From Parcubacteria group bacterium Gr01-1014_20 (GTDB taxonomy: Bacteria; Patescibacteriota; Minisyncoccia; UBA6257; 2-01-FULL-56-20): DNA of 64,000 nt. Below the pieces are notes generated by a model. The model worked only from the letters and a program-made list of their open reading frames with translations. It was not told where the DNA came from and searched no databases. Shown here piece by piece: positions 9,475 to 54,582 of this stretch (the stretch's first letter is position 1; every line of letters begins with the position of its first letter). The translations under genes and the position numbers were made by a program. The stretch is from contig VMFW01000009.1 of NCBI GenBank assembly GCA_007376265.1, positions 70,592 to 134,591 on the forward strand, read 5' to 3'.

Positions 9475-10218
9475 TTACTTGCTTGCAGCGAGGTACTGCA
9501 TCACTTCATAAAACTCACCCTTAGGAATTCGGTGGGTGGCCATGTAGAGCTCGAGAAGTTCCTCGATGCCGAAGAGGTAATAGACGTTATAGCCGGCATC
9601 TCGAAGCAGCTTGCTTCCGCCACGGGATCGATCCACGATCGCCAAGATGTCATAAACGCGGAGACCATTGGCCTCGAGAACCCTGGCGGCCTCAAGCGTG
9701 CATTGTCCTCGGTCAATGACCTCGGTGACCAGCAGGACACTTTCGCCGGGTTTGAATTTACCATCGACGGCGTTAAGGATTCTCTTCTCGCCAGTGGTTG
9801 CATCGACTTCTTTTGAGAGTTTCAACAAATGAATGCGCCCGCTCGGACACCCTTCGGACATGGCTTTGGCATACGGATTGGCGGAGTTTGGTACCGCGCA
9901 GACATATCCGTAGTCCAGTCGATTGATTCTTGCCATGCCGTAAAGGATCGAGCCGATTTCGGCAAGATTTTCCGGAGAAACGGGTCCGGGACATTTAGGA
10001 TCGTTGACTAGCCGAAAATCCAGAAACACCGGTGAGAGCGGAGCGGTGGGATCTTTTTCATGATCCTTCAGCTTATATCCCTCACCGTGAGGAGATTGGG
10101 CTTTGGTTTTGACGACCCCGATCTTGAAAAGTCTGGCGGCTACAACGTCTGACATGGTTCGGAGCGATAGAACTACGGCATCCTCGTCGTGGTGCATAAA
10201 CCGACCCTCCTTGCCCAT
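9475..10218 (-). CDS. type I phosphoribosyltransferase, orotate phosphoribosyltransferase-like
   Basis: PRPP-binding motif VLLVTEVIDRGQCTLEAARVLEANG aligns with PyrE VMLVDDVITAGTAIRE. 247 aa with an N-terminal extension. Confidence 0.5.
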   Translation of the reverse strand: MGKEGRFMHHDEDAVVLSLRTMSDVVAARLFKIGVVKTKAQSPHGEGYKLKDHEKDPTAPLSPVFLDFRLVNDPKCPGPVSPENLAEIGSILYGMARINRLDYGYVCAVPNSANPYAKAMSEGCPSGRIHLLKLSKEVDATTGEKRILNAVDGKFKPGESVLLVTEVIDRGQCTLEAARVLEANGLRVYDILAIVDRSRGGSKLLRDAGYNVYYLFGIEELLELYMATHRIPKGEFYEVMQYLAASK

Positions 10219-10450
10219 CCTATGGGCAAAAGTTGTGAAAAAATATGGAGAAGCACTTCCCTATGTGCTTTTGTAAAATTACGATTCTCGAACAAATATC
10301 GAGATTGTAGATTGTACAAGATAAGTAGTTTTAAGTCAACAGACGGGGTTCAAAACAGGTGGAAAAATTGCCCGCACTAAAAAGCGGGAGTTTGACTTAC
10401 TGGGGAGACAAGGATTAGCCTGATACTAGAACTTTAAAAAAGGAGGGCAA

Positions 10451-12499
10451 ATGGGTTGGTCAAGGCGAAGAACGAGAGATGTGCTCACATTACCGTTGGA
10501 TCTTTTTCCGGAGGAAAGACTAATTCCAAGCGACAAGATAAGGTCGCTCACCGATGAAGGTTTTAATTTTTTGGACCCGGACTTAATTCAACTTAGAGAT
10601 TACCAAGCCGTGGCCACCGGAATTATCCTAGATGGGAAAAACTACGGGTTGAACCTTGAAACCGCGGACGGTAAAACCATCGTGGCTTTCATTGTCGCAG
10701 ATCGAAAGCTGGAAAAAGGCCAGGTGATTCTCTTGGCGCCCCACACGGCTTTATGTGGCCAGCATCACGAGAGAGCCAGGGGCAGATTCAAGAAAATCGA
10801 TCCGGAGCAAATCAACCTGGTGACGGGAGATACGCCAGAAAGGTTGAGACCTGGAATTTATGAAAGGTCTAGGATCGTTATTGCTACGCCACAGACTTAT
10901 TTAAACGACCTTCGAAAAGGGGCGGCAAATCTGAACGGTGTTGAGATAATCATCTTGGACGAGATGCACATGGCGGCAGAAAATTATGCCTACGTCCCGA
11001 TTGCCCAAATGGCTTATGAGCGAGGCATTCAGATTCTCGGACTGACCGCATCGGCTGGAGGGACCAGGGAAAAGATAAACCGGGTTAAGGAGAACCTTCA
11101 CATTCACAGTTGGCTGAAACCTCCCTCGAGCAGATGGCGGCAAATCCGAGACCCCAGCCTTGAGGTAGTGCCTCTGGGCGAAGAGCTCGAGGAGGCGAAG
11201 GATTACCTGTGGGCGCTCTTGAATAAACTGTATCTCGAGATGGTTGAGATGGGCATCACCTCAAAACCTTTCCCCATCATGGCCGAACGTGACCTGAAAG
11301 AGATGCGAGCAAGGATTAGACGAGATATCGAAACCGTTTTGGATGACGAGATTAAGTACAGCCTTTATCGAGCGGCCTCAGTCTTTGCGAGCTATTACAA
11401 GGTCCTTAAACTCTTAACCTACCTAGTGACAGAAGGCTGGGAGGAGTTTGTAAAGTTCGCTTCAAAAATAGAAAAGGCTGACAATCAGGCCGGCGTAAGA
11501 ATTTTAGGCGATCCCCTTTTTGCCGCGACGACGGCAATCGTGGGCGACCTGATGCGTCGAGGCGTTAAACATCCTAAGCAGCAGAGGACCTTGGATGTTT
11601 TGGGCAATCTAAAGTCTTACGAAAAAGCCATCGTGTTCGCGAGATATATTCTTTCAAACCGAAGGCTCTCGGAGATACTAAACGAGGCCGGTATCCGGGC
11701 GGTGTCGCTCGTTGGGAAGAGTGAAATTCCCACCAAAAGACAGCTCGAAATCATTGAAAGTTTTGGCCGGGGGAATTACCAAGTGATGGTTTCAACGGCG
11801 GCTGGCCAGATGGGACTCGACATTGATTCAGTCGACATGGTGACTCACTATTCGGTTTGCCACACGGGGGTCGAAAAAATTCAAAGAGAAGGCCGGGGTG
11901 GACGCAAAAAAAGATGCCGAATCGTAAGCATCCTCATGGACCATCCACTCGATTGGATCCACCACCACTCTTCAAACCGTCAGGTGCGAACGATGACCCT
12001 TGAGGCGAAGAGAGATCGGGGAACGATTCAGGCAGAAGCGATTGAGTCGGCCGAACTCAACCATCCGGCAATTCAAACTTCAATTTTTTCTGGGCGACCG
12101 AAGAAAGAAACTGGATGGGTGCGTGATCTCCGACCGGGAGACTTAGTGCATGAGAGGTTTTTGGTCAGTTCGGTCGTGATAAAACAGAAGACCAAGTTTG
12201 GCCCGGCGGTGTGGATGAAACTCTCCGACAAGACTGGCACCATCCGGCTTTTTGCCAACTGCTCCGACATCGTTCAGGCTCAAGAACTAACCTGGAAAGT
12301 CAGTCGATCGAAAGAGGGCGTGGTTCACATTGTGATTGCCGAAGCTAGGGAACTGAAGAACGAATCCAATCCGAACGGAGAGGTAGTGCTCGTGGCCAAT
12401 TTACGCAGCGTGGATCATCGCCACCACATCGTAAGCTGTCCCGAGGGTGATTACCTTTCGGAAGATTATGTAAAAGTTGAGCCCCCAGACGATTTTTAA
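10451..12499 (+). CDS. SF2 DExH-box helicase with a C-terminal OB-fold-like domain
   Basis: Motif I ETADGKT, motif II DEMH, motif III TAS, motif VI QREGRGGR. Helical insertion between the RecA halves. C-terminal about 150 aa (GDLVHERFLVSSVVIKQKTKFGPAVWMKLSDKTGTIRLFAN) resembles an OB fold. Strong SD AAGGAGGG 6 nt before the ATG. Confidence 0.7.
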   Translation: MGWSRRRTRDVLTLPLDLFPEERLIPSDKIRSLTDEGFNFLDPDLIQLRDYQAVATGIILDGKNYGLNLETADGKTIVAFIVADRKLEKGQVILLAPHTALCGQHHERARGRFKKIDPEQINLVTGDTPERLRPGIYERSRIVIATPQTYLNDLRKGAANLNGVEIIILDEMHMAAENYAYVPIAQMAYERGIQILGLTASAGGTREKINRVKENLHIHSWLKPPSSRWRQIRDPSLEVVPLGEELEEAKDYLWALLNKLYLEMVEMGITSKPFPIMAERDLKEMRARIRRDIETVLDDEIKYSLYRAASVFASYYKVLKLLTYLVTEGWEEFVKFASKIEKADNQAGVRILGDPLFAATTAIVGDLMRRGVKHPKQQRTLDVLGNLKSYEKAIVFARYILSNRRLSEILNEAGIRAVSLVGKSEIPTKRQLEIIESFGRGNYQVMVSTAAGQMGLDIDSVDMVTHYSVCHTGVEKIQREGRGGRKKRCRIVSILMDHPLDWIHHHSSNRQVRTMTLEAKRDRGTIQAEAIESAELNHPAIQTSIFSGRPKKETGWVRDLRPGDLVHERFLVSSVVIKQKTKFGPAVWMKLSDKTGTIRLFANCSDIVQAQELTWKVSRSKEGVVHIVIAEARELKNESNPNGEVVLVANLRSVDHRHHIVSCPEGDYLSEDYVKVEPPDDF

Positions 12500-12513
12500 G
12501 TCTGGGGGTTTTT

Positions 12514-12600
12514 ATATGCGCTTCATTCACGGCGTAACCGCCGATGAAATCCCTAGGTTGCGCATATAAAAAAGCCGCCCCTCGAAAAGGCGGGGCGGCA
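12514..12600. terminator. bidirectional terminator region between the convergent helicase and cation antiporter genes (two hairpins)
   Basis: A 12-bp perfect stem ttttatatgcgc/gcgcatataaaa encloses an about 38-nt loop. It is followed by a GCCGCCCC/GGGGCGGC hairpin (12574..12599) flanked by A/T runs. Confidence 0.55.
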
Positions 12601-12606
12601 AGAGGT

Positions 12607-13647
12607 CTAGCTCGTGAACAAGAAGCAGACCATGATGGCAAAATAAAGTGCTAAGAGCATCACTCCCTCCGAGATCTCCCACTTGTCGTCGTGGAGAACC
12701 AGTAGGGTCGCAAAGAAGGTGGCGATGACGGCTCCAAGGGGAAGGCCGGCAAAGTGAAGTGTGACAGGATTGCCACAGATAACGCCAAAGAGGACGGCGG
12801 CTGGGGCGACCACCATGCCCACCTGGGAGGCCGAGCCGACGGCAATCGAAAGACTAAGCTCCGTCATGCCCTTTCGCGCCGCTACAACGGCGACAAAGTG
12901 TTCGGCGATGTTACCCAAGATCGGGATAAGGATGAAGCCGACAAATCCGGTCGAAAGTCCCAGGCTTGGGGCGACCGATTCGACTTCACCAACCAGAAGC
13001 TCACTCATCAGGAAGGCGCCGATTCCAGCGAGGATGATAACAAAGAAGGAAAAACCGGTGGACCAAGTTCCGTCCATCTTCTCTGATTGCTCTCGAACTT
13101 CCTTGAAGCGCTTGTCGGTCATAGATAAACGATAGAAGTAGACGTACGCGCAAGGGAGCATGAGGGCTAGGATGTAGCTCAAATCAACCTGGCCGACTTC
13201 AGAGATGTGCTCGTTGAAGAGCGTCGGCAGAAAGAGAGTCGCACAGACGAGGAAAAGCATCTTGAGTTGTAGCCAGGCCATGGCTTGGTTGTAGGTCAAG
13301 AGTCCATTTTTCCGGCAGCCGACGTAAATAGACATACCCATCACAAGCAACAGATTGCCCATGATGGAACCGGCAATCCCCGCTTGCACGAGATCAATCA
13401 TGTTTTTAGAGACCGCCACGTAGATGATGATGAGCTCGGCTAAGTTCGAGAGCGTCACGTTGATGAGCCCGGCTAACTGACCACCCAAGTGATCCGATAG
13501 ATGTTCGGTGGCGTCACCCAGCACCTTGCTCAAAAAGATGAGCGCGGCGGCGGACGCGAAGAACGTTAGAATCGGCAGATGGAACAGATAGTGGCTCGCG
13601 TAGGCCGTAGCCATAGACGCAGCTATCACAGTGATTATCTTTTTCAC
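12607..13647 (-). CDS. CaCA-family cation/proton antiporter (ChaA / Na+-Ca2+ exchanger-like)
   Basis: Two alpha-repeat motifs, GNLAELIIIYVAVSK and LGNIAEHFVAVVAARKG. About 10 TM helices. GTG start with a GGAGG SD. Confidence 0.75.
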   Translation of the reverse strand: MKKIITVIAASMATAYASHYLFHLPILTFFASAAALIFLSKVLGDATEHLSDHLGGQLAGLINVTLSNLAELIIIYVAVSKNMIDLVQAGIAGSIMGNLLLVMGMSIYVGCRKNGLLTYNQAMAWLQLKMLFLVCATLFLPTLFNEHISEVGQVDLSYILALMLPCAYVYFYRLSMTDKRFKEVREQSEKMDGTWSTGFSFFVIILAGIGAFLMSELLVGEVESVAPSLGLSTGFVGFILIPILGNIAEHFVAVVAARKGMTELSLSIAVGSASQVGMVVAPAAVLFGVICGNPVTLHFAGLPLGAVIATFFATLLVLHDDKWEISEGVMLLALYFAIMVCFLFTS

Positions 13648-13722
13648 TCCCCTCCTCCTTATGTTTTTCTTCCGTTATTTACGAATCAAAGTACAAAAAA
13701 CTCCAGTTTTACCTGTAGTTTG

Positions 13723-13731
13723 ATTATAGCA
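13723..13731 (-). promoter_or_regulatory. extended -10 promoter element (TGCTATAAT on the minus strand) upstream of the antiporter gene
   Basis: Reverse complement of gcattata. Lies 76 nt upstream of the antiporter start. Confidence 0.35.
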
Positions 13732-13763
13732 TACAATTTCAGAAAAGTCAAACGGTTTCGACT

Positions 13764-14663
13764 TCAATGAAGTTGGGGGGGGATTTCGCAGTTCAAAGCG
13801 GTTAAAATTTTTTGAATGATTTCGGGGTTTGGCTCTACGCATTTGCCGATTTCAATCGAGACGATGCAGCTTATGGATGTCTTTGCTTTCTCGGCCAACT
13901 CAAACTGGGTGAGACGAAGTTCAAGTCGCCGGGCGGTTAAAAACCCGCCTAGGGTTTTTGGGTTTCGGCCTACTTTAAATTTCCTCTTTACTCCCAGAGC
14001 GTGTAGTTCTGTGGCGTTGATCCCTAGGGCTTGAGCGATTTCATCGATCCGCTCTTTGTCCACACTCAGCCTAATTTGGCCAAGCTCGATGAGGCTAACA
14101 CCCGCCCGAGTCATGCCTATCTTTTCGCCTAATTTGGCTTGGGTCATATCTAACCTCTCACGATGATATCGAATAGCCTGACCAAGATCGCTCTGGGGAG
14201 TTTTGGTTCGTACGGATACAAACTCAATGAGCTCTGAAGGTGGTAGCTTCAAGGCTTTGGCCAAAGGATAGAGAAGGTAGAATTTTATGGTCGGGGTTTT
14301 GCCAATTTCTAGCTTCCTGGCCACTTTGAGTGGTACGCCCATTTGGGTAGCGAGTTCCAGGGGTGTTAACTCAAGCTCAGTCCTTCTTCGCTGAATTAGT
14401 TTGCCGAGATTGGTCTTCGGTTCGCCACGCCAAATGATAGGTCTTTCGGGGATTAGCGATCGAATATCCGATTCGGGGCGATTAATGAGAAGAGAGATAT
14501 TTTGTACCTGGACATCCGAAAGAAAGGAACGATCACCGGTTTCGGTTAGACTATAGACGGATCGATTCATGCCGAATCGCTTGGCCATGGATGTTTGGGC
14601 CAAACCAAGTTTGAGGCGCTCACTCCTTAGGAACTCTCCGAGTTTTGTCTTACATGGCACCAT
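13764..14663 (-). CDS. transcriptional regulator with four tandem XRE/Cro-C1-type HTH domains
   Basis: Four repeats of an HTH_3-like block (e.g. LGEFLRSERLKLGLAQTSMAKRFGMNRSVYSLTETG; LGQAIRYHRERLDMTQAKLGEKIGMTRAGVSLIELGQ). The track ORF extends to 14861, but that extension overlaps the upstream gene and its terminator; the start at M67 (14663) is preferred. Confidence 0.6.
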   Translation of the reverse strand: MVPCKTKLGEFLRSERLKLGLAQTSMAKRFGMNRSVYSLTETGDRSFLSDVQVQNISLLINRPESDIRSLIPERPIIWRGEPKTNLGKLIQRRRTELELTPLELATQMGVPLKVARKLEIGKTPTIKFYLLYPLAKALKLPPSELIEFVSVRTKTPQSDLGQAIRYHRERLDMTQAKLGEKIGMTRAGVSLIELGQIRLSVDKERIDEIAQALGINATELHALGVKRKFKVGRNPKTLGGFLTARRLELRLTQFELAEKAKTSISCIVSIEIGKCVEPNPEIIQKILTALNCEIPPQLH

Positions 14664-14770
14664 CCCGGTGCCAATAATTCGACCGGCTTTTGGCACCAAT
14701 GACTCCTTTTTAGTTGTTAACTTACTCTGGCTCAAACAGTAAAACAAGAGCTGGACATTGTCAAGAAAAA

Positions 14771-14795
14771 GCCCTCCGACGTTACGTCGGAAGGC
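14771..14795. terminator. palindromic intrinsic terminator, copy 2 of the family (GCCCTCCGACGTTACGTCGGAAGGC)
   Basis: Hairpin 2 nt after the stop of the CDF gene, flanked by AAAAA / TTT. Confidence 0.6.
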
Positions 14796-14796
14796 T

Positions 14797-15426
14797 TTAA
14801 TGAGAATGATAGACTTGCTTTTGTTTGGCGGCGCGAAAAAGATTGACGCTCCAGTAGGCAAAAACGATGGCGATCAGGATCGAGATAACAAGGTCAAAAA
14901 TCATAAAACCAGTTAGGGCAATCAGAATTCCGGCTGCGACCACGGCGACGCTCTGCCAGAGATCGGAGAGAATATGAACACTAAGACCGCGGTGGGTGAT
15001 GTCCTTAGAGTGGCTGGATTCAAGAACTCGGTGAGCTATGTAGTTTCCAAACCCACCGATCGTAGCCGTAACAATCAGGAGGCCGCTCAAAATTTGATCT
15101 TTGGAACCAAACCGTTCGATTGCTTCGAAAACAATCCAGGCGGCGACGGATAGCAAGAAGAGAGCATTCAGATAGGCGCCTCTTCTGCGCCACTTGTCTT
15201 CGTTCGCTCCCCTTCTGATGGCCAACTCGATCAGGATGGCGATTGTAATGACCAACATATCCTGGAAGACGTGAGCGGCATCGGAGAGGAGCGCAAGACT
15301 ACGAGAGGCGACACCACCGATGATTTCAACTATCAAAATTACGGATGAAATGCCTAAGACCAACCAGTAACGTTTTAGGTTGCAGTAACAGGGGCTGATC
15401 GCGCAACCCTGAAAGTGGCTTTGCAA
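14797..15426 (-). CDS. cation diffusion facilitator (CDF) family transporter, TM domain only (no C-terminal cytoplasmic domain)
   Basis: CDF signature SLALLSDAAHVFQDM in TM2 and HxxxD-like metal site in TM5 (ILSDLWQS). At 209 aa it is shorter than the typical about 300-aa CzcD/FieF. Confidence 0.6.
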   Translation of the reverse strand: MQSHFQGCAISPCYCNLKRYWLVLGISSVILIVEIIGGVASRSLALLSDAAHVFQDMLVITIAILIELAIRRGANEDKWRRRGAYLNALFLLSVAAWIVFEAIERFGSKDQILSGLLIVTATIGGFGNYIAHRVLESSHSKDITHRGLSVHILSDLWQSVAVVAAGILIALTGFMIFDLVISILIAIVFAYWSVNLFRAAKQKQVYHSH

Positions 15427-15502
15427 ACGAAACCTCCTTTATGGGGTTGAAGTCAAAGGTCTAGGTATCTTATAGAATGGTTTTAAGGCTTAAGCAAGAG
15501 AT

Positions 15503-15537
15503 AGAAAAAACCGGCGCATTTTTATGTACGCCGGTTT
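15503..15537 (-). terminator. intrinsic terminator after the 15543..15938 gene
   Basis: On the minus strand, stem aaccggcg/cgccggtt is followed by a T-run. Confidence 0.5.
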
Positions 15538-15542
15538 GGAAT

Positions 15543-15938
15543 CTACCAACCGACACGTGGATCGGCAGAACTTGGCGAATGGGGTTGTAGAATCATGAAA
15601 TGCCGTTCGTCTGGATCCCCCCAGGGTAGTTTCATTCGGACCTCAATACGCCGGCGACCCTGGTCGTCAAGAATCCACCATTGCCGAGATCGGATATCCC
15701 CGGGAGTCCAAACTTCACCTTCCGTGGACCAATCCTTTGGCAGAATTACTCCATCGAGACCTTTTAAGTCTCGCCGACCACAAAATTTGAAACCCCACTC
15801 TTTCAGGATTTCGAGCAACTGATCACTCTTAAGATTCGAACCAAGGAACATGATGTCGCCGACAGGAAGAACACAATCCCAAGTTTCTTTTGGTGGTTCC
15901 TCTAGCACGCGCCGAGCTAACGCAGCTAATTTTCCCAA
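15543..15938 (-). CDS. hypothetical protein
   Basis: 131-aa ORF with no recognisable motif. Confidence 0.4.
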   Translation of the reverse strand: MGKLAALARRVLEEPPKETWDCVLPVGDIMFLGSNLKSDQLLEILKEWGFKFCGRRDLKGLDGVILPKDWSTEGEVWTPGDIRSRQWWILDDQGRRRIEVRMKLPWGDPDERHFMILQPHSPSSADPRVGW

Positions 15939-16016
15939 AGTTTCCTCCTTTTAATGTTTGCTGATTTTCTAGCCGAAAATTAACACGAAGATATGTTTGT
16001 GTCAATTAGATTTTCT

Positions 16017-16210
16017 ACGTGTGCGCGGGACAGGCAATTGAACGTCGCTCATATCCATTCGCTCCCAATAGGGCTTCCGCCCTCTTGTCCTCGCTTACGC
16101 TCGGTCACCCCAACGGGGAAACACTAGCGTTTTTCCCCGACCCCCTTTCGTGTTCAACTCCTGTCCCTCAGGATAAAATTTGCACCGCAAAAGCGGTCCA
16201 AATTTTACAT
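16017..16210. repeat. degenerate tRNA-Leu 3'-end fragments (one direct, one inverted) adjacent to tRNA-Leu; possible att-site scar
   Basis: 16019..16042 (tgtgcgcgggacaggcaattgaac) copies the tRNA 3' end at 16211..16236 in direct orientation, with the first 15 nt identical. 16153..16168 (gttcaactcctgtccc) is an inverted copy of the T-arm/acceptor 3' strand. Neither folds into a complete tRNA. Confidence 0.5.
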
Positions 16211-16211
16211 G

Positions 16212-16294
16212 TGCGCGGGACAGGAGTTGAACCTGCATGCCCTTGCGGGCGCTACCACCTCAAGGTAGTGCGTCTGCCGTTTCGCCACCCGCGC
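16212..16294 (-). tRNA. tRNA-Leu(GAG), type II with long variable arm
   Basis: Minus-strand sequence GCGCGGGTGGCGAAACGGCAGACGCACTACCTTGAGGTGGTAGCGCCCGCAAGGGCATGCAGGTTCAACTCCTGTCCCGCGCA. Acceptor GCGCGGG/CCCGCGC, D-loop like the Leu consensus, anticodon loop CTTGAGGT (GAG), long variable arm, T-loop TTCAACT. CCA not encoded. Confidence 0.8.
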
Positions 16295-16341
16295 GTTATC
16301 AGGGTGATTCTAAACGATAGCACCCAAAATTTCAATAAAAA

Positions 16342-16362
16342 AGAGCCTAAGACTTAGGCTCT
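16342..16362 (-). terminator. intrinsic terminator overlapping the stop of the zinc-ribbon gene
   Basis: Perfect 9-bp hairpin agagcctaag-ac-ttaggctct, followed on the minus strand by TTTTTTATT. Confidence 0.5.
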
Positions 16363-16610
16363 TCGGAAGACAGGTGGAAAGATAGGTACGCTTTTTCATC
16401 GGGTACAAAGAAATAAGAAATACCGCAATTGGCGCAGTGGAAACCATCGGAAAATCTTTTAATCTGGTTTTGTGACCCTGGGCCAAATATGGGTGGGCCG
16501 GTACTCGGATCGTGACGACTCGAAAAGGATTCAACGATTTCACCAGCCTTGCAAACAACGCATTTGCGACCGGTTTTTACGTCATCGGGCTTAGGCGATC
16601 TGACTCCCAT
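16347..16610 (-). CDS. small zinc-ribbon protein (two CxxC pairs), function unknown
   Basis: Start chosen at M23 of the track ORF because of a strong SD (AAGGGGAGG, 4-nt spacer). Sequence MGVRSPKPDDVKTGRKCVVCKAGE...FHCANCGISYF. Confidence 0.5.
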   Translation of the reverse strand: MGVRSPKPDDVKTGRKCVVCKAGEIVESFSSRHDPSTGPPIFGPGSQNQIKRFSDGFHCANCGISYFFVPDEKAYLSFHLSSEEPKS

Positions 16611-16697
16611 ATTCCTCCCCTTGTTGAGTTTTAAAAATCTAAGGATAATTGAAACAGAAAAACCGCCCTTCGGCAAGCTCAGGACGGTTTCTTGTGG

Positions 16698-17414: not shown

Positions 17415-17439
17415 AAAAGAGCTTTTTAGTTGTCCCAAT
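17415..17439. repeat. 3' half of the pre-16S processing stem (pairs with 19150..19174)
   Basis: aaaagagctttttagttgtcccaat versus the reverse complement of attgggacaactaaaaaactctttt: 24 of 25 bp complementary, flanking the 16S gene. Classic RNase III stem; rnc is present in the window. Confidence 0.6.
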
Positions 17440-17594
17440 CCGGGCTCCATAATTTTAAAAAAATTCTTAAAAAATGGAGCGGTTTGTTAGCTAGATCTTC
17501 GCTTTTGGCCTCGAGAATCATGCCTTGCGGCATAAAAATTTAACCAAAAGCAAAAATCTATCGACACGATTTGAACCGAAGTTCAATCGTTTAG

Positions 17595-19088
17595 TTTAAT
17601 TGTTCCACGCACAGCTTCCGCTACGCGTGCCTTGTTACGACTTAGCCCATGTCACCGATCTGAAGTTAGTCCTACTTGCGTAGGCCTTCACCTCTTACCG
17701 GCTCCCTTGGCTTGACGGGCAGTGAGTACAGGACTCGAGAACGTATTCACCGCGCCGTGGCTGATGCGCGATTACTAGCGATTCCGGCTTCATGAGGGCG
17801 AGTTTCAGCCCTCAATCCGAACTGGGGCTAGGTTTTTGGGATTAGCTCCGTCTTGCGACTTGGCAACCCTTTGTCCTAGCCATTGTAACATGAGTGTAGC
17901 CCAGGGCGTCAAAGGGCCATGCTGATTTGACGTCATCCCCTCCTTCCTCCCAGCCTTTTGTTCACGAAGTGAACAAAAGGAATTAGGAATAATGAATCAG
18001 GAATCATGGTTTTTATTTCACAATTCACAATTCGAAATTCCAGATTCGCTTTTGCACCTCCTGTGCAAAAGGCTGGGCAGTCCCGTGTGACACTTGTAAC
18101 ACACGATAGGGGTTGCGCTCGTTACCCCACTTAAGGGAACACCTCAAGGCACGAGCTGACGACAACCATGCAGCACCTGGACTAGCGGTCCTTGTGAGAG
18201 GGCCAACCTTTCGGCCGGCTTTCCGCTAGAATTTCAAGCCCTGGTAAGGTTCCTCGCTTGTCGTCGAATTAAACCTCATGTTCCACCGCTTGTGCGAGTC
18301 CCCGTCTATTCCTTTGAGTTTTAAGCTTGCGCTCGTACTTCCCAGGCGGCCTGCTTAACGCGGAAAGTCCCAGTGTGCTGCCTTCGCCTTTGGTATTCCG
18401 CACGATATCAACGGATTTCACCCCTACACCGTGCGTTCTACACACCTCTGACTCCCTCTAGCCCGATCGTATCTTTGGCACTTCCACCGTTAGGCGGTGG
18501 GCTTTAACCAAAGACGCACCGAGCCCCCTACATACTCTTTACGCCCAATAAATCCGGATAACGCTTGAGGTCTACGTATTACCGCTGGTGCTGGCACGTA
18601 GTTACCCACCTCTTTCCGTAAGGCACTCATTTGCATTGTTACCTTACTACCGCAGTTTACGACCCGGAGGCCTTCTTCCTGCACGCGGCGTCGCTCCATC
18701 AGGCTTTCGCCCATTGTGGAATATTCTCGACTGCTGCCTCCCGTAGGAGTACGAGCCGTGTCTCAGTCTCGTCGTTGGAGATCGGGCTCTCACCCCTCCT
18801 ACCGGTCATAGCCTTGGTGAGCCATTACCTCACCAACTAGCTGATCGGACCTAAGCCGATCCCAAAGCCCCTTGCGGGTTTACTCTTGCGAGACCATCGA
18901 GTATTACCTCACCTTTCGATGAGCTATTCTCGACTTTGGGGTACGTACTAGGGTGTTACTAACTCGTTCGCCGCTAAACTAATAAATCCGTCGCCTTGAT
19001 GTAATCGCAACTTCTTCAAAATTAGTTCCGCACGACTTGCATGCCTTATCCACGCCGCCAGCGTTCATCCTGGACCAGGATCAAATCC
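17595..19088 (-). rRNA. rrs: 16S ribosomal RNA (about 1.5 kb) with an about 115-nt expansion insertion and an atypical 3' tail
   Basis: Minus strand begins GAGGATTTGATCCTGGTCCAGGATGAACGCTGGCGGCGTG. Contains the universal GTGCCAGCAGCCGCGGTAATAC and AAGTCGTAACAAGG blocks. 3' terminus reads ...GCGTGGAACAATTAAAC instead of ...GGATCACCTCCTT. The insertion at 17956..18070 is flanked by pairing cccagcc/ggctggg. Confidence 0.85.
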
Positions 19089-19149
19089 TCAAAAAAACTT
19101 TTCAACTTCGCTCAAGATTTTCATCTTGAGTTGATCGAAAAGTTAGTAA

Positions 19150-19174
19150 ATTGGGACAACTAAAAAACTCTTTT
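19150..19174. repeat. 5' half of the pre-16S processing stem
   Basis: Inverted repeat partner of 17415..17439; lies in the 16S leader. Confidence 0.6.
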
Positions 19175-19328: not shown

Positions 19329-19356
19329 ATTATAGGCGGTCCCGCCCCCTTGTCAA
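19329..19356 (-). promoter_or_regulatory. sigma-70-type promoter for the 16S rRNA (minus-strand -35 TTGACA, 16-bp spacer, -10 TATAAT)
   Basis: Plus-strand tgtcaa at 19351..19356 and attata at 19329..19334. About 235 nt upstream of the mature 16S 5' end; the leader includes the processing stem. Confidence 0.6.
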
Positions 19357-28763: not shown

Positions 28764-30323
28764 CTATACCAGGCTGCTTTTTTGGATTACCGTTTCTAGT
28801 TCCTTAAGTTCCTCGGTTAGGGGTCGATCATCGTTTACCGCCCCAGAAACACTTCTAACTAAATCATAGAGTTTGCTGGATTCGTTGGAAAGCTTTTCTT
28901 TTTCTTCATGACAGTCCACGGCTTGAGCCAGGGTGACGAGTTCGATGGTAAGCACCACGTAAGCATTTTCTAAAACCTTGGCGGCGAAGAGGGCGGCGTC
29001 TGTGCCCATACTAACTACATCCTGATTATCGGAGTTGGTAGAAATAGAGTGAATTGAATGAGGGAAGGCTAGCGACTGGCTTTGGGCGGTGGTGGAAGTG
29101 GCTACGAACTGCAAGCCTTGAAGACCCAGGGTGAGTCCTGGTTTTTTTAAATTTAGAAAAGGTGGGAAGGATCTGTTAACTTTGTCGTTTAAGAAAAAGT
29201 TAATCTGACGCTCAAGTAATATGGTTAATTTGACTAGGCTCGCTTTCAGTCCATCTACTGCGGAGGCCACGTAGTCACCATGAAAGTTGCCCCCATGGAT
29301 GAACTTACTATTTTCCCAATCAACTAACGGATTGTCGGTTACGGAGTTGATTTCTATTTCAACCGTGCTCTCGGTTTGTTTCAAAGCCTCCCAGATCGGG
29401 CCTAAAATTTGGGGTAAACACCGGAGCGAGTAAACTTCCTGAACATCGGAAGGGATTTTATAGACATCGTTTTCCTCCTTGATCATCTCTCGAAGTATTT
29501 TGCGATCACGCATCAACTTTGAGGACGCGAGAATCTCTCTCATCTTTCCAGCCACAAAAACCTGGCCTTCGTGGGGGCGAAGTTCGTGAAGTTTTTCGGA
29601 GATACTATCTAAGAAACCGTGGACGAGCTCGAGGGCCAAGGCTCCGGTTCTAATAGATGTGCTCAGAAGTTGATCGGTCTCAGCGCAAATTAGAGCGGTG
29701 ATGCCTGACATAACGGAAGTGCCATTGATTAGGGCGAGACCTTCCTTGGGTTTGAGTTTGATGGGAGTTAGGCCAACCTCCTTAAAAACTTCGGGGGTGG
29801 GACGGGTTTTCCCTTGATACGAAACTTTCCCCTCCCCGATTAGAACGAGGGCAATGTGGGCGAGTTGGGTTAGGTCGCCGCTTGTGCCCACCGCGCCGTG
29901 TTCTGGCACTATCGGTAAAATTCTATGGTTGATGATATTTTTAAAGAGCTCCACCAAGTCCCAGGAAACGCCGGAGTAGCCTTTGACGAGGGTATTTAGG
30001 CGGACAACCATGGAAGAGAGTACGTACTTCTCGGGGATTGGGCTACCGATGCCACAGGCATGACTGCGAACCAAGTTTTCTTGGAGTTCGATGAGATCAT
30101 TTTTACTGATGATGTGGGAGGCCATCGGCCCAAAACCAGTGTTTATGCCATAAACAATCTTATTGTTGGTTTCGAGCTCGCTATTCAAAAAAGCGTGGCA
30201 TTTTAATACGACTTCTTTGGCCGCATCTCCAATTTCCACCTTTGCTTCTGGGTTTTGGGTGAACCAGTTCAGATCTTTGATTTTCAGGCTTTTGCCGTCT
30301 AGGACTAGCTTTTGTTGCTCCAT
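28764..30323 (-). CDS. MIO-dependent aromatic amino acid ammonia-lyase/aminomutase family enzyme (HAL/PAL family; SH selectivity dyad like histidase, TSG instead of ASG at the MIO position)
   Basis: GINTGFGPMA, LVRSHACGIG, GAVGTSGDLTQLAHIALVLIGEG, LINGTS, YSLRC, GGNFHG are all HAL/PAL hallmarks. 519 aa. Confidence 0.75.
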   Translation of the reverse strand: MEQQKLVLDGKSLKIKDLNWFTQNPEAKVEIGDAAKEVVLKCHAFLNSELETNNKIVYGINTGFGPMASHIISKNDLIELQENLVRSHACGIGSPIPEKYVLSSMVVRLNTLVKGYSGVSWDLVELFKNIINHRILPIVPEHGAVGTSGDLTQLAHIALVLIGEGKVSYQGKTRPTPEVFKEVGLTPIKLKPKEGLALINGTSVMSGITALICAETDQLLSTSIRTGALALELVHGFLDSISEKLHELRPHEGQVFVAGKMREILASSKLMRDRKILREMIKEENDVYKIPSDVQEVYSLRCLPQILGPIWEALKQTESTVEIEINSVTDNPLVDWENSKFIHGGNFHGDYVASAVDGLKASLVKLTILLERQINFFLNDKVNRSFPPFLNLKKPGLTLGLQGLQFVATSTTAQSQSLAFPHSIHSISTNSDNQDVVSMGTDAALFAAKVLENAYVVLTIELVTLAQAVDCHEEKEKLSNESSKLYDLVRSVSGAVNDDRPLTEELKELETVIQKSSLV

Positions 30324-47944: not shown

Positions 47945-49178
47945 GCAATTTATGTCTAAAGACGAACTGAAGCCAGAGGAAAGCAAAAATGACCACCGAG
48001 CCATTGGTGAGGCCTTAGATTTGTTCTCTTTTCATGAGGTAGCGCCGGGGACGGCTTTTTGGCACGGCAAGGGCATGATTATCTTTCGAGAGCTGGAGAA
48101 GTTAATTCGAGGGGAATTAGACCAAGTTGGATACGAGGAAATCTCGACGCCGATTATGGTGAAAAAAGAAGTCTTTGAAAAATCTGGGCATGCCAAATAT
48201 TATCGAGAAAACATGTTCGAGCTTGAAGACGGAGATCAGACTTACTTTTTGAAACCGATGAACTGCCCAGAATCGACTTATGTTTATGGCTCAAGAATCC
48301 GAAGTTATAAAGATTTACCTTTGCGACTATCGGAGATTGGACGTTTACATCGCAATGAACTATCAGGGGTTTTAGGTGGACTTTTTAGAGCGCGGCAGTT
48401 CACGATGGACGACGCGCATATTTATTTGCGGCCAGATCAGATCCAGGGAGAGGTTTCTTCACTTTTGAAGTTAGTGACGAAGGTTTACGCCATTTTTGGT
48501 TTTAGTCCGAAGTTTTATTTATCGACGATGCCGGACAAAGCCATGGGCGACAAAAAAGCGTGGGAGAAAGCCGAAGAGGCACTCGAGATGGCGTTAAAGG
48601 AAAATGGAGTAAAACATGAACTCAAAGAAAAGGACGGAGCTTTTTACGGACCGAAGATTGATATTGAAATTAAGGATTCTCTGGGAAGGAGCTGGCAGTT
48701 GGCGACGATTCAACTAGACCTACTGATGCTTCCCGAGCAGTTCGGCTTAACTTATATTGACGAGGAGGGGAAAAAACAGAAACCCATGGTCATTCATCGA
48801 GCGGTTTATGGTTCTTTTGAAAGATTCATCGGAGTTCTGCTCGAGCATTTTGAGGGAGCGCTCCCGCTTTGGCTCTCCCCTGTCCAGGCGGTGGTGCTAC
48901 CAGTGAGTGAAAAATTTACGGGCTATGGAAAAAAAGTTTTTGACGAGTTAAAAAACGCTGGAATTCGAGTAGAAATTTCAGATGCGAATGAAACATTGGG
49001 CAAAAGAATCCGCGAGGCGGAGGTTAGAAAGATTCCTTACGTGATTGTGGTGGGAGAGAGGGAGGAGTCGGGAGATTTTGTAAATGTTCGACGGCGTGGT
49101 TCGAAAGATAATACGGAAGTTAAAGTTTCGGAGCTGATTTCGAGGATTAAAAAAGAGATTGAGGAGAGGGCTTTGTAA
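47943..49178 (+). CDS. thrS: threonyl-tRNA synthetase, N-terminally truncated form (catalytic + anticodon-binding domains only; no TGS or editing domain)
   Basis: Class II motifs: HRELEKLIRGEL, FRARQFTMDDAHIY, and C-terminal anticodon-binding domain. Only 411 aa versus about 640; the true start may be 47952. Confidence 0.8.
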   Translation: MQFMSKDELKPEESKNDHRAIGEALDLFSFHEVAPGTAFWHGKGMIIFRELEKLIRGELDQVGYEEISTPIMVKKEVFEKSGHAKYYRENMFELEDGDQTYFLKPMNCPESTYVYGSRIRSYKDLPLRLSEIGRLHRNELSGVLGGLFRARQFTMDDAHIYLRPDQIQGEVSSLLKLVTKVYAIFGFSPKFYLSTMPDKAMGDKKAWEKAEEALEMALKENGVKHELKEKDGAFYGPKIDIEIKDSLGRSWQLATIQLDLLMLPEQFGLTYIDEEGKKQKPMVIHRAVYGSFERFIGVLLEHFEGALPLWLSPVQAVVLPVSEKFTGYGKKVFDELKNAGIRVEISDANETLGKRIREAEVRKIPYVIVVGEREESGDFVNVRRRGSKDNTEVKVSELISRIKKEIEERAL

Positions 49179-49407
49179 AGTAAAAGAAAACCCAAGCATA
49201 GCTTGGGTTGAAACCTTGTCTTTGGTTTTCGATTTTTGATTTAAGGGCAAGGAAAAATACCAGCCCGAGAATCACGGCAATGAAAAGAAATAGAGTCGAC
49301 TTCCTCGGCGAGACGCCCAGAGTAATGTTCGTGATCAGATAGAGAATAGCCACTCCCATAATCACGCAGAGAACCGCGAGCGCGTATATGTCGTATACCT
49401 GGAACAT
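49147..49407 (-). CDS. possible small two-TM membrane protein (weak)
   Basis: 86-aa ORF with two hydrophobic helices. Overlaps the thrS 3' end and a hairpin (49190..49210), so it may be spurious. Confidence 0.25.
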   Translation of the reverse strand: MFQVYDIYALAVLCVIMGVAILYLITNITLGVSPRKSTLFLFIAVILGLVFFLALKSKIENQRQGFNPSYAWVFFYFTKPSPQSLF

Positions 49408-49454
49408 CCCTCCTCCCCGCTCTCGATGGAGAATCTGATCGGTGGATTTGAAGC

Positions 49455-50399
49455 TTACATAGATTCAAGTTCGTCGAGATCGACATCCTGGGCTTCATAG
49501 AGAAATGAGCAGTCTATACCTAGCGGCAAGAGAGCGCTACGGAACTCACCTTCAAAGTTGCGCAGGTCCGTCTGATCTCTCCTTGAGTCATGATGGGTTA
49601 CGAAAACTGATTTTGGCACTTCACTGCAACGTTCGAGTGAGGCCAAAATCATCTCGGGAGTTGAATGGCCCCAGCCGATCATTGGAGTGGCCGGCGAATC
49701 CATCACACCAACTTTGCCAAGATATTCGCCTTCACGCAGTTGGCACTCGACGACCAGGAAATCTGCGCCATCCACGAACCTCGCAAAGTTCTTCTGATGG
49801 TAAGCGCTTGAAAGCTCAACATCCGTGGCGATGACAATAGACTTCTTATCGGAAAGCTGGATACGATAGCCGCAGCTCTCCCCGGGATGATTTTGAAGCG
49901 AAGTGAGAATGTCACGATCGAAGACCACGAGACTGGCACCCGGTTTGAAATCATAGATGCTGGTCTGACACTTGGGCGCAATTGGCCAATGAGAAGTATT
50001 CAAAAGCCTCTCGTTCCAGAGCTGATTCGGTACTACCCCTCCCACCTTAGGACAAAAGAACTGAGTGAGCGGGCTATCGGGCCGATACAGCAGTGGATTC
50101 AGGTGCATGCCTTCAATGTGATCGTAGTGGTAATGAGACTGAAACATTGCCACCTGCTTCGGCTCAGCCTGTTGAATGGCATCACCAGTGATTTGAACGC
50201 CGAGTCCGTTGTCGATCAAGAAGGCGACATCTTCGTCGATAATCGCGAAGGACGTGGTAAGTTGACCAAATTCTCCTCGATCGAGATCTCTCTGCATCCA
50301 GATCTGGGGCGGAGTGTCACTCCTGCTCACACCTAGTTTGAGTCGCCTGGCGGGCGCAACGGCGCCACCAGTGCAACCACCAACAATCAGACAACGCAT
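49455..50399 (-). CDS. MBL-fold metallo-hydrolase
   Basis: HxHxDH motif in MFQSHYHYDHIEG; 314 aa. Confidence 0.6.
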   Translation of the reverse strand: MRCLIVGGCTGGAVAPARRLKLGVSRSDTPPQIWMQRDLDRGEFGQLTTSFAIIDEDVAFLIDNGLGVQITGDAIQQAEPKQVAMFQSHYHYDHIEGMHLNPLLYRPDSPLTQFFCPKVGGVVPNQLWNERLLNTSHWPIAPKCQTSIYDFKPGASLVVFDRDILTSLQNHPGESCGYRIQLSDKKSIVIATDVELSSAYHQKNFARFVDGADFLVVECQLREGEYLGKVGVMDSPATPMIGWGHSTPEMILASLERCSEVPKSVFVTHHDSRRDQTDLRNFEGEFRSALLPLGIDCSFLYEAQDVDLDELESM

Positions 50400-50498
50400 T
50401 TCGTTTCCTCCTATTTTTGAGATGTTTGATTATCAAAAGAACGAATCCATATTCTAGTATATTTGTGTTAAAAAGTCAATCTGAATACACAAAGAAAA

Positions 50499-50522
50499 AC
50501 CCGCGCCTTTTGGACGCGGGGT
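50499..50522 (-). terminator. intrinsic terminator downstream of yajC
   Basis: Minus strand ccccgcgtcc-aaaagg-cgcggg followed by TTTTTCTTT. Confidence 0.55.
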
Positions 50523-50540
50523 AATACGAAGAACGAGTGA

Positions 50541-50840
50541 TCAAGAAACAACTTGGAGGCGGTCGAGGCTGCGGCGCACCGTAAAGGGATTGCCTTTGCG
50601 ATCTTTCAGCTCAACCACAGCTTTTTGGCCGACGATGTCGACAACCTTACCGACCTTGCCGCCAGTTATGACGTTGCGGTCAATCTCGATTGAGGAGGCC
50701 ATGCGATTACCGAAGGCCACTTCCTCTTTCGACAGACGGCCCCAGTTTTTGAACAGATAGATGAGCAGACCCGCCGATGCGATAATCAGAACCGCTATAA
50801 GCCACGGCTCCACCTGCTGAAGCGTTTCTAAAGACAACAT
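50541..50840 (-). CDS. yajC: preprotein translocase subunit YajC
   Basis: Single N-terminal TM then ITGGKVGKVVDIVGQKAVVELKDRKGNPFTVRRSL, characteristic of YajC; 99 aa. Confidence 0.75.
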   Translation of the reverse strand: MLSLETLQQVEPWLIAVLIIASAGLLIYLFKNWGRLSKEEVAFGNRMASSIEIDRNVITGGKVGKVVDIVGQKAVVELKDRKGNPFTVRRSLDRLQVVS

Positions 50841-50861
50841 CTTGACCCTCCTCCTTGAGCG

Positions 50862-50984
50862 TTACGGGTTGGACTGCTGTTTTTTCTTTTCCGCTTTAGC
50901 GATCTCTTTCTGAACTTCATGCCAGACCAAACCGATGCCGATGATCGCGATCACAACACCCAAAAAAGATTTAGTGCTCGCCAT
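50862..50984 (-). CDS. small single-TM peptide (40 aa), unannotated
   Basis: Manual translation MASTKSFLGVVIAIIGIGLVWHEVQKEIAKAEKKKQQSNP. SD AAAGGAGAAAA directly upstream. Not in the ORF track. Confidence 0.5.
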   Translation of the reverse strand: MASTKSFLGVVIAIIGIGLVWHEVQKEIAKAEKKKQQSNP

Positions 50985-51114
50985 TTTTCTCCTTTGACGC
51001 CGGCTTGAAGAGTCGGCTTAAGAGCAACCCTCCGCCACCCACGACGGCAAAAATGATCAAAACGATGACGACGTTTTCCACCGTGAAAGGCACGGGATCA
51101 AATAAAGGTTGCAT
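50971..51114 (-). CDS. small single-TM peptide (47 aa), unannotated
   Basis: MQPLFDPVPFTVENVVIVLIIFAVVGGGGLLLSRLFKPASKEKNGEH. SD GGAGGAG 4 nt upstream. Its stop overlaps the start region of the next peptide gene. Confidence 0.5.
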   Translation of the reverse strand: MQPLFDPVPFTVENVVIVLIIFAVVGGGGLLLSRLFKPASKEKNGEH

Positions 51115-51126
51115 GGCTCCTCCGAT

Positions 51127-51234
51127 TTACAGCTTAAATCCGAGTACTCGTTTTGACAGCCACCCAAGAAAGCGATCTTGGGCGAGACCAATCAAAAGGA
51201 TGACTGAGACAACAAGAGCGACTTGCAAGAACAT
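51127..51234 (-). CDS. small single-TM peptide (35 aa), unannotated
   Basis: MFLQVALVVSVILLIGLAQDRFLGWLSKRVLGFKL. SD GGAGGAGGA 6 nt upstream. Confidence 0.45.
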   Translation of the reverse strand: MFLQVALVVSVILLIGLAQDRFLGWLSKRVLGFKL

Positions 51235-54547: not shown

Positions 54548-54582
54548 ACGATCACCTCCCTTCCTTGGGTTTGATGGCTGAA

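What the first reader, a model, noticed from the sequence alone, without database searches (positions are those of the whole stretch)
17595..19088. 16S rRNA 3' terminus lacks the canonical anti-Shine-Dalgarno, yet many genes in the window carry strong AGGAGG SDs
After the universal AAGTCGTAACAAGG block, helix 45 is recognisable (GGCACGCGTAGCGGAAGCTGTGCGTGG). The terminal single strand, however, reads AACAATTAAAC-TAAACG instead of GGATCACCTCCTT. No CCTCC occurs anywhere in the 215 nt between the gene and the downstream CDS. Several genes here have textbook SDs (AAGGAGGG before 10451; GGAGGAG before the small peptides), while others (rpmE, thrS, serS) look leaderless. Either this rrs copy is a divergent or non-functional paralog, or the tail is remodelled, or the organism relies on a different copy for SD-dependent initiation.
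Basis: seen in the sequence. Interest (0 to 1): 0.55.

Follow-up and report, generated by a model that had tools for sequence, protein, structure and literature searches.

The report
16S rRNA without an anti-Shine-Dalgarno tail
This groundwater Parcubacteria genome has a 16S rRNA whose mRNA-docking tail (CCUCC) is replaced by AAUUAAAC, a loss shared by its whole clade and already published, but a minority of accessory genes still carry textbook AGGAGG ribosome-binding sites that this rRNA cannot pair with.

Summary
The covariance model places the 16S gene at 17593-19096 (minus strand). It aligns the model tail GAUCACCUCCUUU to GAACAAUUAAACU. There is no CCUCC anywhere in the trailer.

An independent Logan assembly reproduces the junction exactly. 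About 40 species-level Parcubacteria relatives carry the same tail in the same 16S / response-regulator / L19 synteny. So this is the lineage's normal rrs with a remodelled tail, not a stray paralog. Loss of the anti-SD in a Parcubacteria subgroup is already published (Tsurumaki 2022).

Core genes look leaderless: a TATAAT-like box sits 6-9 nt before the start codon. AGGAGG motifs are real (23 of 59-70 genes, against 0-5 for control motifs). They sit on GC-richer accessory genes, including a block inserted between L19 and RNase HII that is absent from 32 relatives, and an NAD-salvage island. They are probably imported signals that this ribosome does not read. One gene family conserved across three anti-SD-less species keeps its SD core, so an unknown function is not excluded.

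That is either an assembly error or an inactivating deletion.

The parts
17593..19096 (-). 16S rRNA gene (rrs) of Parcubacteria group bacterium Gr01-1014_20
   Evidence: RF00177, 1197.9 bits, model 1-1533. The organism name comes from the NCBI name of the identical NAPRTase protein.
17593..17605 (-). 3' single-stranded tail GAACAAUUAAACU, which takes the place of GAUCACCUCCUUU and has no anti-SD
   Evidence: CM alignment. Identical in the Logan contig L001. The tail is conserved as GGAUCAAUUAAAC in about 40 relatives.
17606..17630 (-). Helix 45 with the GGAA loop (the dimethyl-adenosine loop)
   Evidence: All pairs are canonical in the CM alignment. Relatives L011 and L015 show compensatory double changes.
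17415..17439 (-). 3' strand of the pre-16S processing stem (AUUGGGACAACUAAAAAGCUCUUUU)
   Evidence: Pairs with 19150-19174 in the cofold. The motif TTGGGACAACTAAAAAGCTCTT is conserved at the end of the trailer in relatives.
19150..19174 (-). 5' strand of the pre-16S processing stem (AAAAGAGUUUUUUAGUUGUCCCAAU)
   Evidence: Cofold of leader and trailer. An RNase III gene is present at 6498-7184.
19329..19356 (-). Consensus sigma-70 promoter (TTGACA, 16 nt, TATAAT) upstream of rrs
   Evidence: 12/12 match.
18360..18363 (-). Junction of a 117-nt deletion that removes helices 24-26 (the 790 loop and the GGATTAGATACCC primer site). The deletion is unique to this sequence.
   Evidence: 114 model positions are replaced by 1 nt. 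All relatives have the segment. No copy of the segment occurs elsewhere in the window.
17954..18072 (-). 119-nt expansion segment inside the 16S. It contains a hairpin with AGGAG in its loop.
   Evidence: CM insertion *[119]*. AGGAGGTG on the rRNA strand at 18062-18055.
9475..16676 (.). Lineage-specific insertion between L19 and RNase HII, next to tRNA-Leu. It carries five SD-bearing genes (a hypothetical, a DEAD helicase, a Ca2+/H+ antiporter and two more hypotheticals) plus an HTH protein.
   Evidence: None of the six genes has a homolog in 32 anti-SD-less relatives' loci, while the flanking synteny is conserved. GC is 48-51%. tRNA-Leu lies at 16211-16294.
49147..63237 (-). GC-richer accessory region with about 15 SD-bearing genes, including an NAD-salvage cluster (NadE, a PRPP-synthetase-like protein, a nucleoside deoxyribosyltransferase-like protein, NAPRTase, NUDIX, and an NMNAT-NAD kinase fusion). 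It is interrupted by an SD-less miaA at 51304-52215.
   Evidence: The same cluster with its SD cores is present in L084.
28764..30323 (-). Example of a leaderless-type gene: TATAAT lies 12 nt before the ATG
   Evidence: Upstream sequence gctataatactcgatataaaATG. The clade-wide peak of -10-like hexamers lies 6-9 nt before starts.

Best explanation
The gene is the ordinary, orthologous 16S gene of a Parcubacteria (Paceibacteria-type) clade. In an ancestor of this clade the anti-SD CCUCCUU was replaced by AAUUAAAC, and the new tail has since been held nearly invariant. This part is shown.

These cells start translation of most core genes on leaderless mRNAs. That is inferred from a -10 promoter box sitting 6-9 nt before the start codon.

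The AGGAGG motifs cannot pair with this 16S (shown by sequence and by predicted duplex energy). They are concentrated on accessory, GC-richer DNA that is inserted relative to related genomes.

The most likely reading is that these motifs arrived with gene cassettes exchanged among CPR bacteria, about half of whose Parcubacteria lineages still carry an anti-SD. Here the genes would be translated without SD pairing, through A/G-rich unstructured short leaders and translational coupling. This last step is inferred.

The unique 117-nt loss of helices 24-26 in this copy is a separate matter. It is most likely an assembly or scaffolding error.
For: Tail, junction and energetics.

Clade-wide conserved tail in the conserved 16S / response-regulator / L19 synteny, with conservation dropping right after AAAC(UA).

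Functional hallmarks of the gene: a 12/12 promoter, a long leader-trailer stem together with an RNase III gene, compensatory changes in h45 in relatives, and 15 singleton substitutions against 0-17 in relatives.

Literature: the anti-SD motif was detected in only 48% of Parcubacteria, and the SD helix was presumed not to form (PMC9297842).

Leaderless signature: 71 -10-like hexamers lie 6-9 nt before starts among 554 genes of relatives, against about 3 per other position. The top upstream 6-mers are -10-like.

Two gene classes in the window: SD-plus genes average GC 50.5% and SD-minus genes 45.0% (p = 3.6e-7). SD-minus genes are the core genes, such as S11, S13, SMC, RNase III, NusB, aminoacyl-tRNA synthetases, RpoD, DnaG, L19, L31 and LepA.

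The SD-plus block 9475-16676 is absent from 32 relatives at a conserved site next to tRNA-Leu.

E. coli ribosomes with an altered anti-SD still initiate at the correct sites (PMC7043885).
Against: One accessory gene family, found just after L19 in three anti-SD-less species, keeps an SD-like core at the right spacing. Those species have 94-96% 16S identity, and the two members matched by tblastn share 49% protein identity. The spacer and flanks around the core have diverged.

GGAGG/AGGAG also shows a positional peak 4-9 nt before starts in relatives: about 28-34 observed against about 6 expected.

SD cores are mostly retained between the window and L084 at 77-85% nucleotide identity.

The Ca2+/H+ antiporter has only CPR homologs above 45% identity, so its donor need not be a classical SD user.

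In relatives, SD-plus genes are not GC-deviant.

The rest of the genome was not searched for a second rrs.

Gene starts come from a simple ORF rule, not from a trained gene finder.
Confidence: 0.6

Rival explanations
1. The AGGAGG motifs are functional and kept by selection in anti-SD-less cells. They would be read by something other than the 16S 3' tail, such as another rRNA segment, a ribosomal protein or a regulator. Alternatively they act only by keeping short leaders unstructured.
For: An SD-like core is conserved in the L010/L021/L027 family although the flanks have diverged. GGAGG shows a positional peak in 32 anti-SD-less loci. SD cores are kept in L084. SD-plus genes are exactly those without a -10 box next to the start, so they have leaders and need 30S loading.
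Against: No CCUCC is available in the tail or trailer. Only one of 47 multi-species families shows the pattern, and none of the members of the conserved core families has it. In the window, SD-plus genes are compositionally foreign and inserted. No receptor is known.
Confidence: 0.22
2. This rrs is a dead or specialised paralog, and another rrs copy with a canonical anti-SD serves the SD-led genes.
For: This copy lacks helices 24-26, including the 790 loop. That would be lethal for a sole rrs, by established knowledge of 30S function. Only 64 kb of the genome was available.
Against: Full-length relatives carry the same tail at the same syntenic locus. The promoter, the processing stem and a normal substitution load are all present. 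CPR genomes generally have one rRNA copy (own knowledge). Anti-SD loss is already reported for this group.
Confidence: 0.07
3. The new tail AAUUAAAC is a replacement anti-SD that pairs with a new upstream mRNA motif (GUUUAAUU).
For: The tail is strongly conserved across about 40 species, although the classical function is gone.
Against: Complementary k-mers are not enriched upstream of 618 starts: GTTTAAT occurs 2 times against 1 in the background, and TTTAATT 4 against 3. Most genes appear leaderless.
Confidence: 0.03
4. The tail is an assembly artefact or a chimeric join at 17590-17610.
For: Metagenome assemblers often break or mis-join at 16S genes.
Against: The independent Logan contig is identical across the junction. 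The same tail is present in about 40 independent MAGs and in 2 JGI contigs.
Confidence: 0.01

Closest known systems
Anti-SD-lacking 16S rRNAs of a Parcubacteria subgroup (Tsurumaki et al. 2022, RNA 28:1041, PMC9297842)
   Same: Both are CPR/Parcubacteria 16S genes with no CCUCCU at the 3' end, and in both the SD helix is presumed not to form. This window is an instance of that group.
   Different: The paper reports only the absence of the motif. It does not describe the conserved replacement AAUUAAAC, the leaderless promoter signature, or residual AGGAGG motifs on accessory genes. The paper notes that h26 is highly conserved in Parcubacteria, and h26 is the helix deleted in this copy.
Bacteroidetes/Flavobacteria-type SD-independent initiation
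   Same: Most genes lack SD motifs, and initiation relies on A-rich or unstructured upstream regions. A few genes still carry strong SDs.
   Different: Bacteroidetes keep the anti-SD in the rRNA but occlude it with ribosomal proteins. Here the anti-SD sequence itself is gone. The dominant mode here appears to be leaderless rather than leadered A-rich.
Mitochondrial small-subunit rRNA with leaderless mRNAs
   Same: The rRNA has no anti-SD, and translation is largely leaderless.
   Different: This is a free-living or episymbiotic bacterium with a bacterial-size 16S. The GGAUCA motif and helix 45 are retained, and the new tail is conserved rather than lost.
Engineered anti-SD-mutant (orthogonal) E. 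coli ribosomes (Saito, Green and Buskirk 2020, PMC7043885)
   Same: Ribosomes that cannot pair with SD still initiate at the correct start codons. This is a model for how SD-bearing imported genes could be expressed here.
   Different: That system is experimental and short-term. This is a natural state that has been stable over evolutionary time.

Membership tests
Bacterial SSU rRNA (Rfam RF00177) | Covariance-model score above the gathering threshold over the full model | tested here: met
   1197.9 bits against a gathering score of 50, model 1-1533.
Bacterial SSU rRNA (Rfam RF00177) | Complete central domain, including helices 24-26 and the 790 loop | tested here: not met
   114 model positions are replaced by 1 nt. 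All relatives have the segment.
Bacterial SSU rRNA (Rfam RF00177) | 3' tail GAUCACCUCCUUA (the anti-SD) | tested here: not met
   The tail is GAACAAUUAAACU. There is no CCTCC in the trailer.
Anti-SD-lacking Parcubacteria 16S (Tsurumaki 2022) | Parcubacteria/CPR affiliation | tested here: met
   The source is named Parcubacteria group bacterium Gr01-1014_20. The closest L19 loci are Parcubacteria, Paceibacterota and Liptonbacteria MAGs.
Anti-SD-lacking Parcubacteria 16S (Tsurumaki 2022) | No CCTCCT motif at the 16S 3' end | tested here: met
Anti-SD-lacking Parcubacteria 16S (Tsurumaki 2022) | Co-occurrence with loss of ribosomal protein uL1 | not testable with these tools
   This needs the whole genome, and only 64 kb was available.
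Canonical SD-led initiation | GGAGG-type motif 4-10 nt upstream of start codons, above chance | tested here: met
   23/70 genes against 0-5 for controls. The spacer peaks at 4-7 nt. It holds only for accessory genes.
Canonical SD-led initiation | Complementary anti-SD in the 16S rRNA | tested here: not met
   Duplex energy is -0.2 to -0.5 kcal/mol, against -8.7 to -12.2 for a canonical tail.
Leaderless initiation | Promoter -10 element about 6-9 nt upstream of the start codon | tested here: met
   The peak at 6-9 nt has 71 hexamers among 554 genes in relatives. In the window 12/36 SD-minus genes have one, against 0/23 SD-plus genes.
Leaderless initiation | Mapped transcription start at the start codon | not testable with these tools
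   This needs 5' RACE or dRNA-seq.
rRNA pseudogene | Relaxed constraint: excess substitutions at invariant positions, or loss of the promoter or processing signals | tested here: not met
   15 singleton changes against 0-17 in relatives. The promoter and processing stem are intact.
rRNA pseudogene | Loss of an essential structural element | tested here: inconclusive
   The 117-nt h24-h26 deletion is present in the sequence. Whether it exists in the reads could not be checked (searches found nothing on record).

The most novel reading that the evidence does not exclude
In a bacterial clade whose only 16S rRNA has no anti-SD, AGGAGG motifs at canonical spacing are still kept by selection on leadered accessory genes. 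That would mean the Shine-Dalgarno motif can be read, or can act, by a route that does not involve pairing with the 16S 3' tail.
Probability: 0.15. Interest if true: 0.8.

Novelty: new member of a known kind. Interest (0 to 1): 0.4.

Why it matters
The headline, a bacterial 16S without an anti-SD, is real but already reported for this Parcubacteria subgroup. On its own it is therefore confirmation, not discovery.

What this case adds:
- The tail was not simply lost. It was replaced by a sequence (AAUUAAAC) that has been held nearly invariant across about 40 species, so it has some other, unknown role.
- Core genes show a clear leaderless signature.
- SD motifs persist on exchangeable accessory DNA. 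This gives a natural system for asking whether SD motifs do anything without their rRNA partner.

Practical consequences:
- SD-based start-codon calling will mislead in these MAGs.
- Standard 515F primers will mismatch the 530 loop in this clade, and in this assembly the 785F/805R target site is missing altogether.
- The unique 117-nt gap flags a probable error in a deposited MAG.

Tried and rejected
1. Hidden anti-SD downstream, as an intron or a split tail. There is no CCTCC in the 215-nt trailer. The shortest relatives' trailers are about 30 nt with no CCUCC. CACCTCCT occurs only twice in the window, both times on the wrong strand or in the wrong place.

2. The missing h24-h26 segment encoded elsewhere in the window. 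GGATTAGATACCCTGGTAGTCC with up to 3 mismatches gives 0 hits.

3. The tail as a new anti-SD. Complementary k-mers are not enriched upstream of 618 starts.

4. A chimeric contig joining an SD-using organism to a CPR organism. SD-less core genes are interleaved with SD-plus genes (miaA at 51304-52215, and aminoacyl-tRNA synthetase genes at 46.6-49.2 kb). The NAD cluster recurs in a related groundwater contig, L084.

5. Recent transfer from non-CPR donors. The Ca2+/H+ antiporter has only CPR-type homologs above 45% identity. NAPRTase is about equally similar (61-67%) to CPR and non-CPR proteins, so it is not informative.

6. Independent evidence on the deletion junction through Logan contigs. Four look-ups of ORFs inside the 16S found nothing on record.

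7. GC deviation of SD-plus genes in relatives. None was found, but that set is diluted by chance motif hits.

8. Eight-base complementarity between the tail (AAUUAAAC) and the universal 16S segment GUUUAAUU (18274-18267). It was noted but treated as probable chance, because that segment is invariant and no covariation test is possible.

Full report
WHAT IS THERE

The window is part of a 141-kb contig of 'Parcubacteria group bacterium Gr01-1014_20'. The name comes from the identical NAPRTase protein. Rfam's bacterial SSU model matches 17593..19096 on the minus strand at 1197.9 bits over the full model. In the covariance-model alignment, helix 45 is perfectly paired. The 13 terminal model positions GAUcACCUCCUUu are aligned to GAACAAUUAAACU.

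On the rRNA strand, CCTCC occurs only inside the 16S body (18670) and in a hairpin of the 5' leader (19263). It does not occur in the 3' trailer. A canonical tail would bind AAGGAGGU at about -12 kcal/mol. This tail gives -0.5 kcal/mol.

IT IS NOT AN ARTEFACT AND NOT A STRAY PARALOG

A Logan contig from run SRR8863434 is 100% identical from helix 45 through the tail and trailer into the downstream response-regulator gene.

I used the adjacent L19 protein to fetch related loci from species-representative genomes. About 40 Parcubacteria, Paceibacterota and Liptonbacteria MAGs have the same 16S / response-regulator / L19 arrangement. Every one has the tail GGAUCAAUUAAAC(UA) or a one- or two-base variant, and none has CCUCC. 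Two JGI contigs agree. Conservation stops abruptly after AAAC(UA). Beyond that point the trailers are variable hairpins, and they end in a conserved TTGGGACAACTAAAAAGCTCTT.

In the window that motif pairs with the leader sequence AAAAGAGTTTTTTAGTTGTCCCAAT to form a long processing stem. An RNase III gene lies in the window. A perfect TTGACA-16-TATAAT promoter sits upstream of the gene. Relatives show compensatory double changes in helix 45 (L011, L015). The window's 16S has 15 private substitutions at otherwise invariant columns, within the 0-17 range of its relatives. This is the lineage's normal rrs with a remodelled tail.

ALREADY KNOWN

Tsurumaki et al. 2022 (PMC9297842) report three things. 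The CCTCCT motif is detected in only 48% of Parcubacteria. The lineages without it overlap the uL1-lacking group. The SD helix is thought not to form there. I found no paper that deals with SD motifs upstream of genes in these lineages.

HOW GENES START

With a simple ORF-based gene set, SD 6-mers lie upstream of 23/70 genes in the window. Four control motif sets give 0-5. The spacer distribution peaks at 4-7 nt.

The genes fall into two classes (Pfam results).
- SD-minus genes are the core genes: S11, S13, SMC, RNase III, NusB, RNase HII, HisRS, AlaRS, SerRS, RpoD, DnaG, L19, L31, LepA and MiaA. They average 45.0% GC. Twelve of 36 have a -10-like box in the 30 nt before the start.
- SD-plus genes are accessory: a DEAD helicase, a Ca2+/H+ antiporter, hypotheticals, and an NAD-salvage cluster. 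They average 50.5% GC (p = 3.6e-7), and none of the 23 has such a box.

In 32 anti-SD-less relatives' loci (476 kb), -10-like hexamers peak sharply 6-9 nt before start codons. There are 71 among 554 genes, against about 3 per other position. The most enriched upstream 6-mers are -10-like. This is the classic signature of leaderless mRNAs. K-mers complementary to the new tail are not enriched, so the tail is not a new anti-SD.

WHERE THE SD-BEARING GENES COME FROM

The close relatives L037, L002, L013 and L005 conserve the gene order 16S, response regulator, L19, a variable stretch, then RNase HII, NusB, RNase III and SMC. In the window the variable stretch is 7.3 kb (9475-16676), next to tRNA-Leu. 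It holds six genes, five of them SD-bearing. None of the six has a homolog in any of the 32 loci.

The second SD-rich region (49-63 kb, GC 51-53%) holds the NAD-salvage cluster. That cluster recurs, SD cores included, in a Hainich groundwater contig with 88% protein identity. The antiporter's homologs above 45% identity are, where named, all from CPR bacteria, so exchange was probably within the radiation. About half of Parcubacteria still have an anti-SD.

My preferred reading is that the SD motifs travel with exchangeable cassettes and are not read by this ribosome. The genes would be translated anyway, as E. coli ribosomes with an altered anti-SD still initiate at the right sites (PMC7043885).

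WHAT DOES NOT FIT

Relatives also show a positional GGAGG/AGGAG peak 4-9 nt before starts: about 28-34 observed against about 6 expected, after allowing for spurious ORFs inside the 16S.

One small gene family sits directly after L19 in L010, L021 and L027. These species have 94-96% 16S identity. L19 third codon positions are about 60% identical. The two members matched by tblastn share 49% protein identity. All three genes keep an SD-like core at the right distance, although the spacer and the rest of the leader have diverged. This is one of 47 multi-species families, and conserved core families never have an SD. The evidence is therefore thin, but it keeps open the possibility that SD-like motifs have a function that does not need the 16S tail. 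In relatives, SD-plus genes are not GC-deviant, although that set is diluted by chance hits.

A SEPARATE PROBLEM IN THIS COPY

The covariance-model alignment shows 114 model positions replaced by one base at about 18361. This removes helices 24-26, the 790 loop and the universal GGATTAGATACCC site. Every relative has these 117 nt. That includes two contigs that share the exact 26-mer just 5' of the junction.

There is no microhomology longer than 1-2 nt at the junction and no N in the window. The segment is not found elsewhere in the window. Outside the gap the gene shows no decay. A sole rrs without the 790 loop should not be viable, by established knowledge of 30S function. I therefore consider an assembly or scaffolding error most likely, and a very recent deletion (with another copy present) the alternative. 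I could not check the reads.

VERDICT

The phenomenon is published, so novelty is low. The residual SD motifs on accessory genes, the strict conservation of the replacement tail, and the unique central-domain gap are the points worth a follow-up.

CAVEATS

Gene starts come from an ORF rule that prefers an SD-supported start where one exists. The same rule was applied to the control motifs. Only 64 kb of this genome and about 20 kb per relative were available. Anti-SD status is known only for loci that include the 16S 3' end.

Noticed in passing
window 18360-18363 (minus strand): A 117-nt deletion removes 16S helices 24-26, including the 790 loop and the 785F/805R primer site. It is unique to this assembly: all of the roughly 30 relatives and the two contigs that share the flanking 26-mer have the segment. 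It is either a probable assembly error or an inactivating deletion.
   Followed up: partly
L082:1640-2605 (minus strand); also L026, L039, L007, L029, L024: Relatives carry large insertions (introns) in the 16S. L082 has about 990 nt with an ORF inside the 790 loop (AGGATT|...|AGATACCC). L026 and L039 have about 855 nt at window-rrs position 1375/1376. L007 has about 810 nt at 952/953, L029 about 300 nt at 934, and L024 about 500 nt at 1461.
   Followed up: no
window 17954-18072 (minus strand), hairpin at about 18050-18070: A 119-nt expansion segment inside the 16S contains a hairpin (CUUUUGCAC-AGGAG-GUGCAAAAG) that displays an SD-like AGGAG in its loop. L083 has a comparable but different expansion at the same site.
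   Followed up: no
window about 18575-18600 (minus strand): The 530 loop reads GCCAGCACCAGCGGUAAUAC instead of the universal GCCAGCAGCCGCGGUAAUAC. This holds across the clade (14/14 loci). The pseudoknot partner is changed as well (GGUGGGUAAC), so the 507:524 pair is switched C-G to G-C. Standard 515F primers would mismatch.
   Followed up: partly
window 19329-19356 and 19251-19274 (minus strand): A perfect consensus sigma-70 promoter is followed about 55 nt later by a terminator-like hairpin with a U-run (its loop region contains GCCUCC). This all lies upstream of the 16S processing stem. It could be an rRNA leader attenuator or a short RNA.
   Followed up: no
window 17594-17601 versus 18267-18274 (minus strand): The conserved tail AAUUAAAC is perfectly complementary to the universal 16S segment GUUUAAUU (E. 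coli about 956-963, next to helix 31). This may be chance. No covariation test is possible because both segments are invariant.
   Followed up: partly
window 55060-62260 (minus strand); L084: An NAD-salvage gene cluster: NadE, a PRPP-synthetase-like protein, a nucleoside 2-deoxyribosyltransferase-like protein, NAPRTase, NUDIX, and an NMNAT-NAD kinase fusion. GC is 51-54% and every gene has an SD. It is shared at 88% protein identity with a Hainich groundwater contig.
   Followed up: partly
window 24752-30323 (minus strand): A low-GC (39-47%) run of nitroreductase-family, ThiF-family, 518-aa hypothetical and aromatic amino-acid lyase genes. Each has its own -10-like box just before the start. 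It may be a small biosynthetic cluster.
   Followed up: no
L010:10300-10790, L021:10300-10790, L027:10300-10779: A gene family of about 130 aa lies directly after L19 in three anti-SD-less species. All three keep an SD-like core (AGGAG/GGAGG) 6-8 nt before the ATG, behind an extended -10-like TGCTAG box. The rest of the leader has diverged.
   Followed up: partly
window 12607-13647 (minus strand): NCBI annotates the Ca2+/H+ antiporter as 335 aa, using an internal ATG. Two close homologs (93-95% identity) and the SD-supported GTG give 346-347 aa. This illustrates how uncertain start calls are in this lineage.
   Followed up: no
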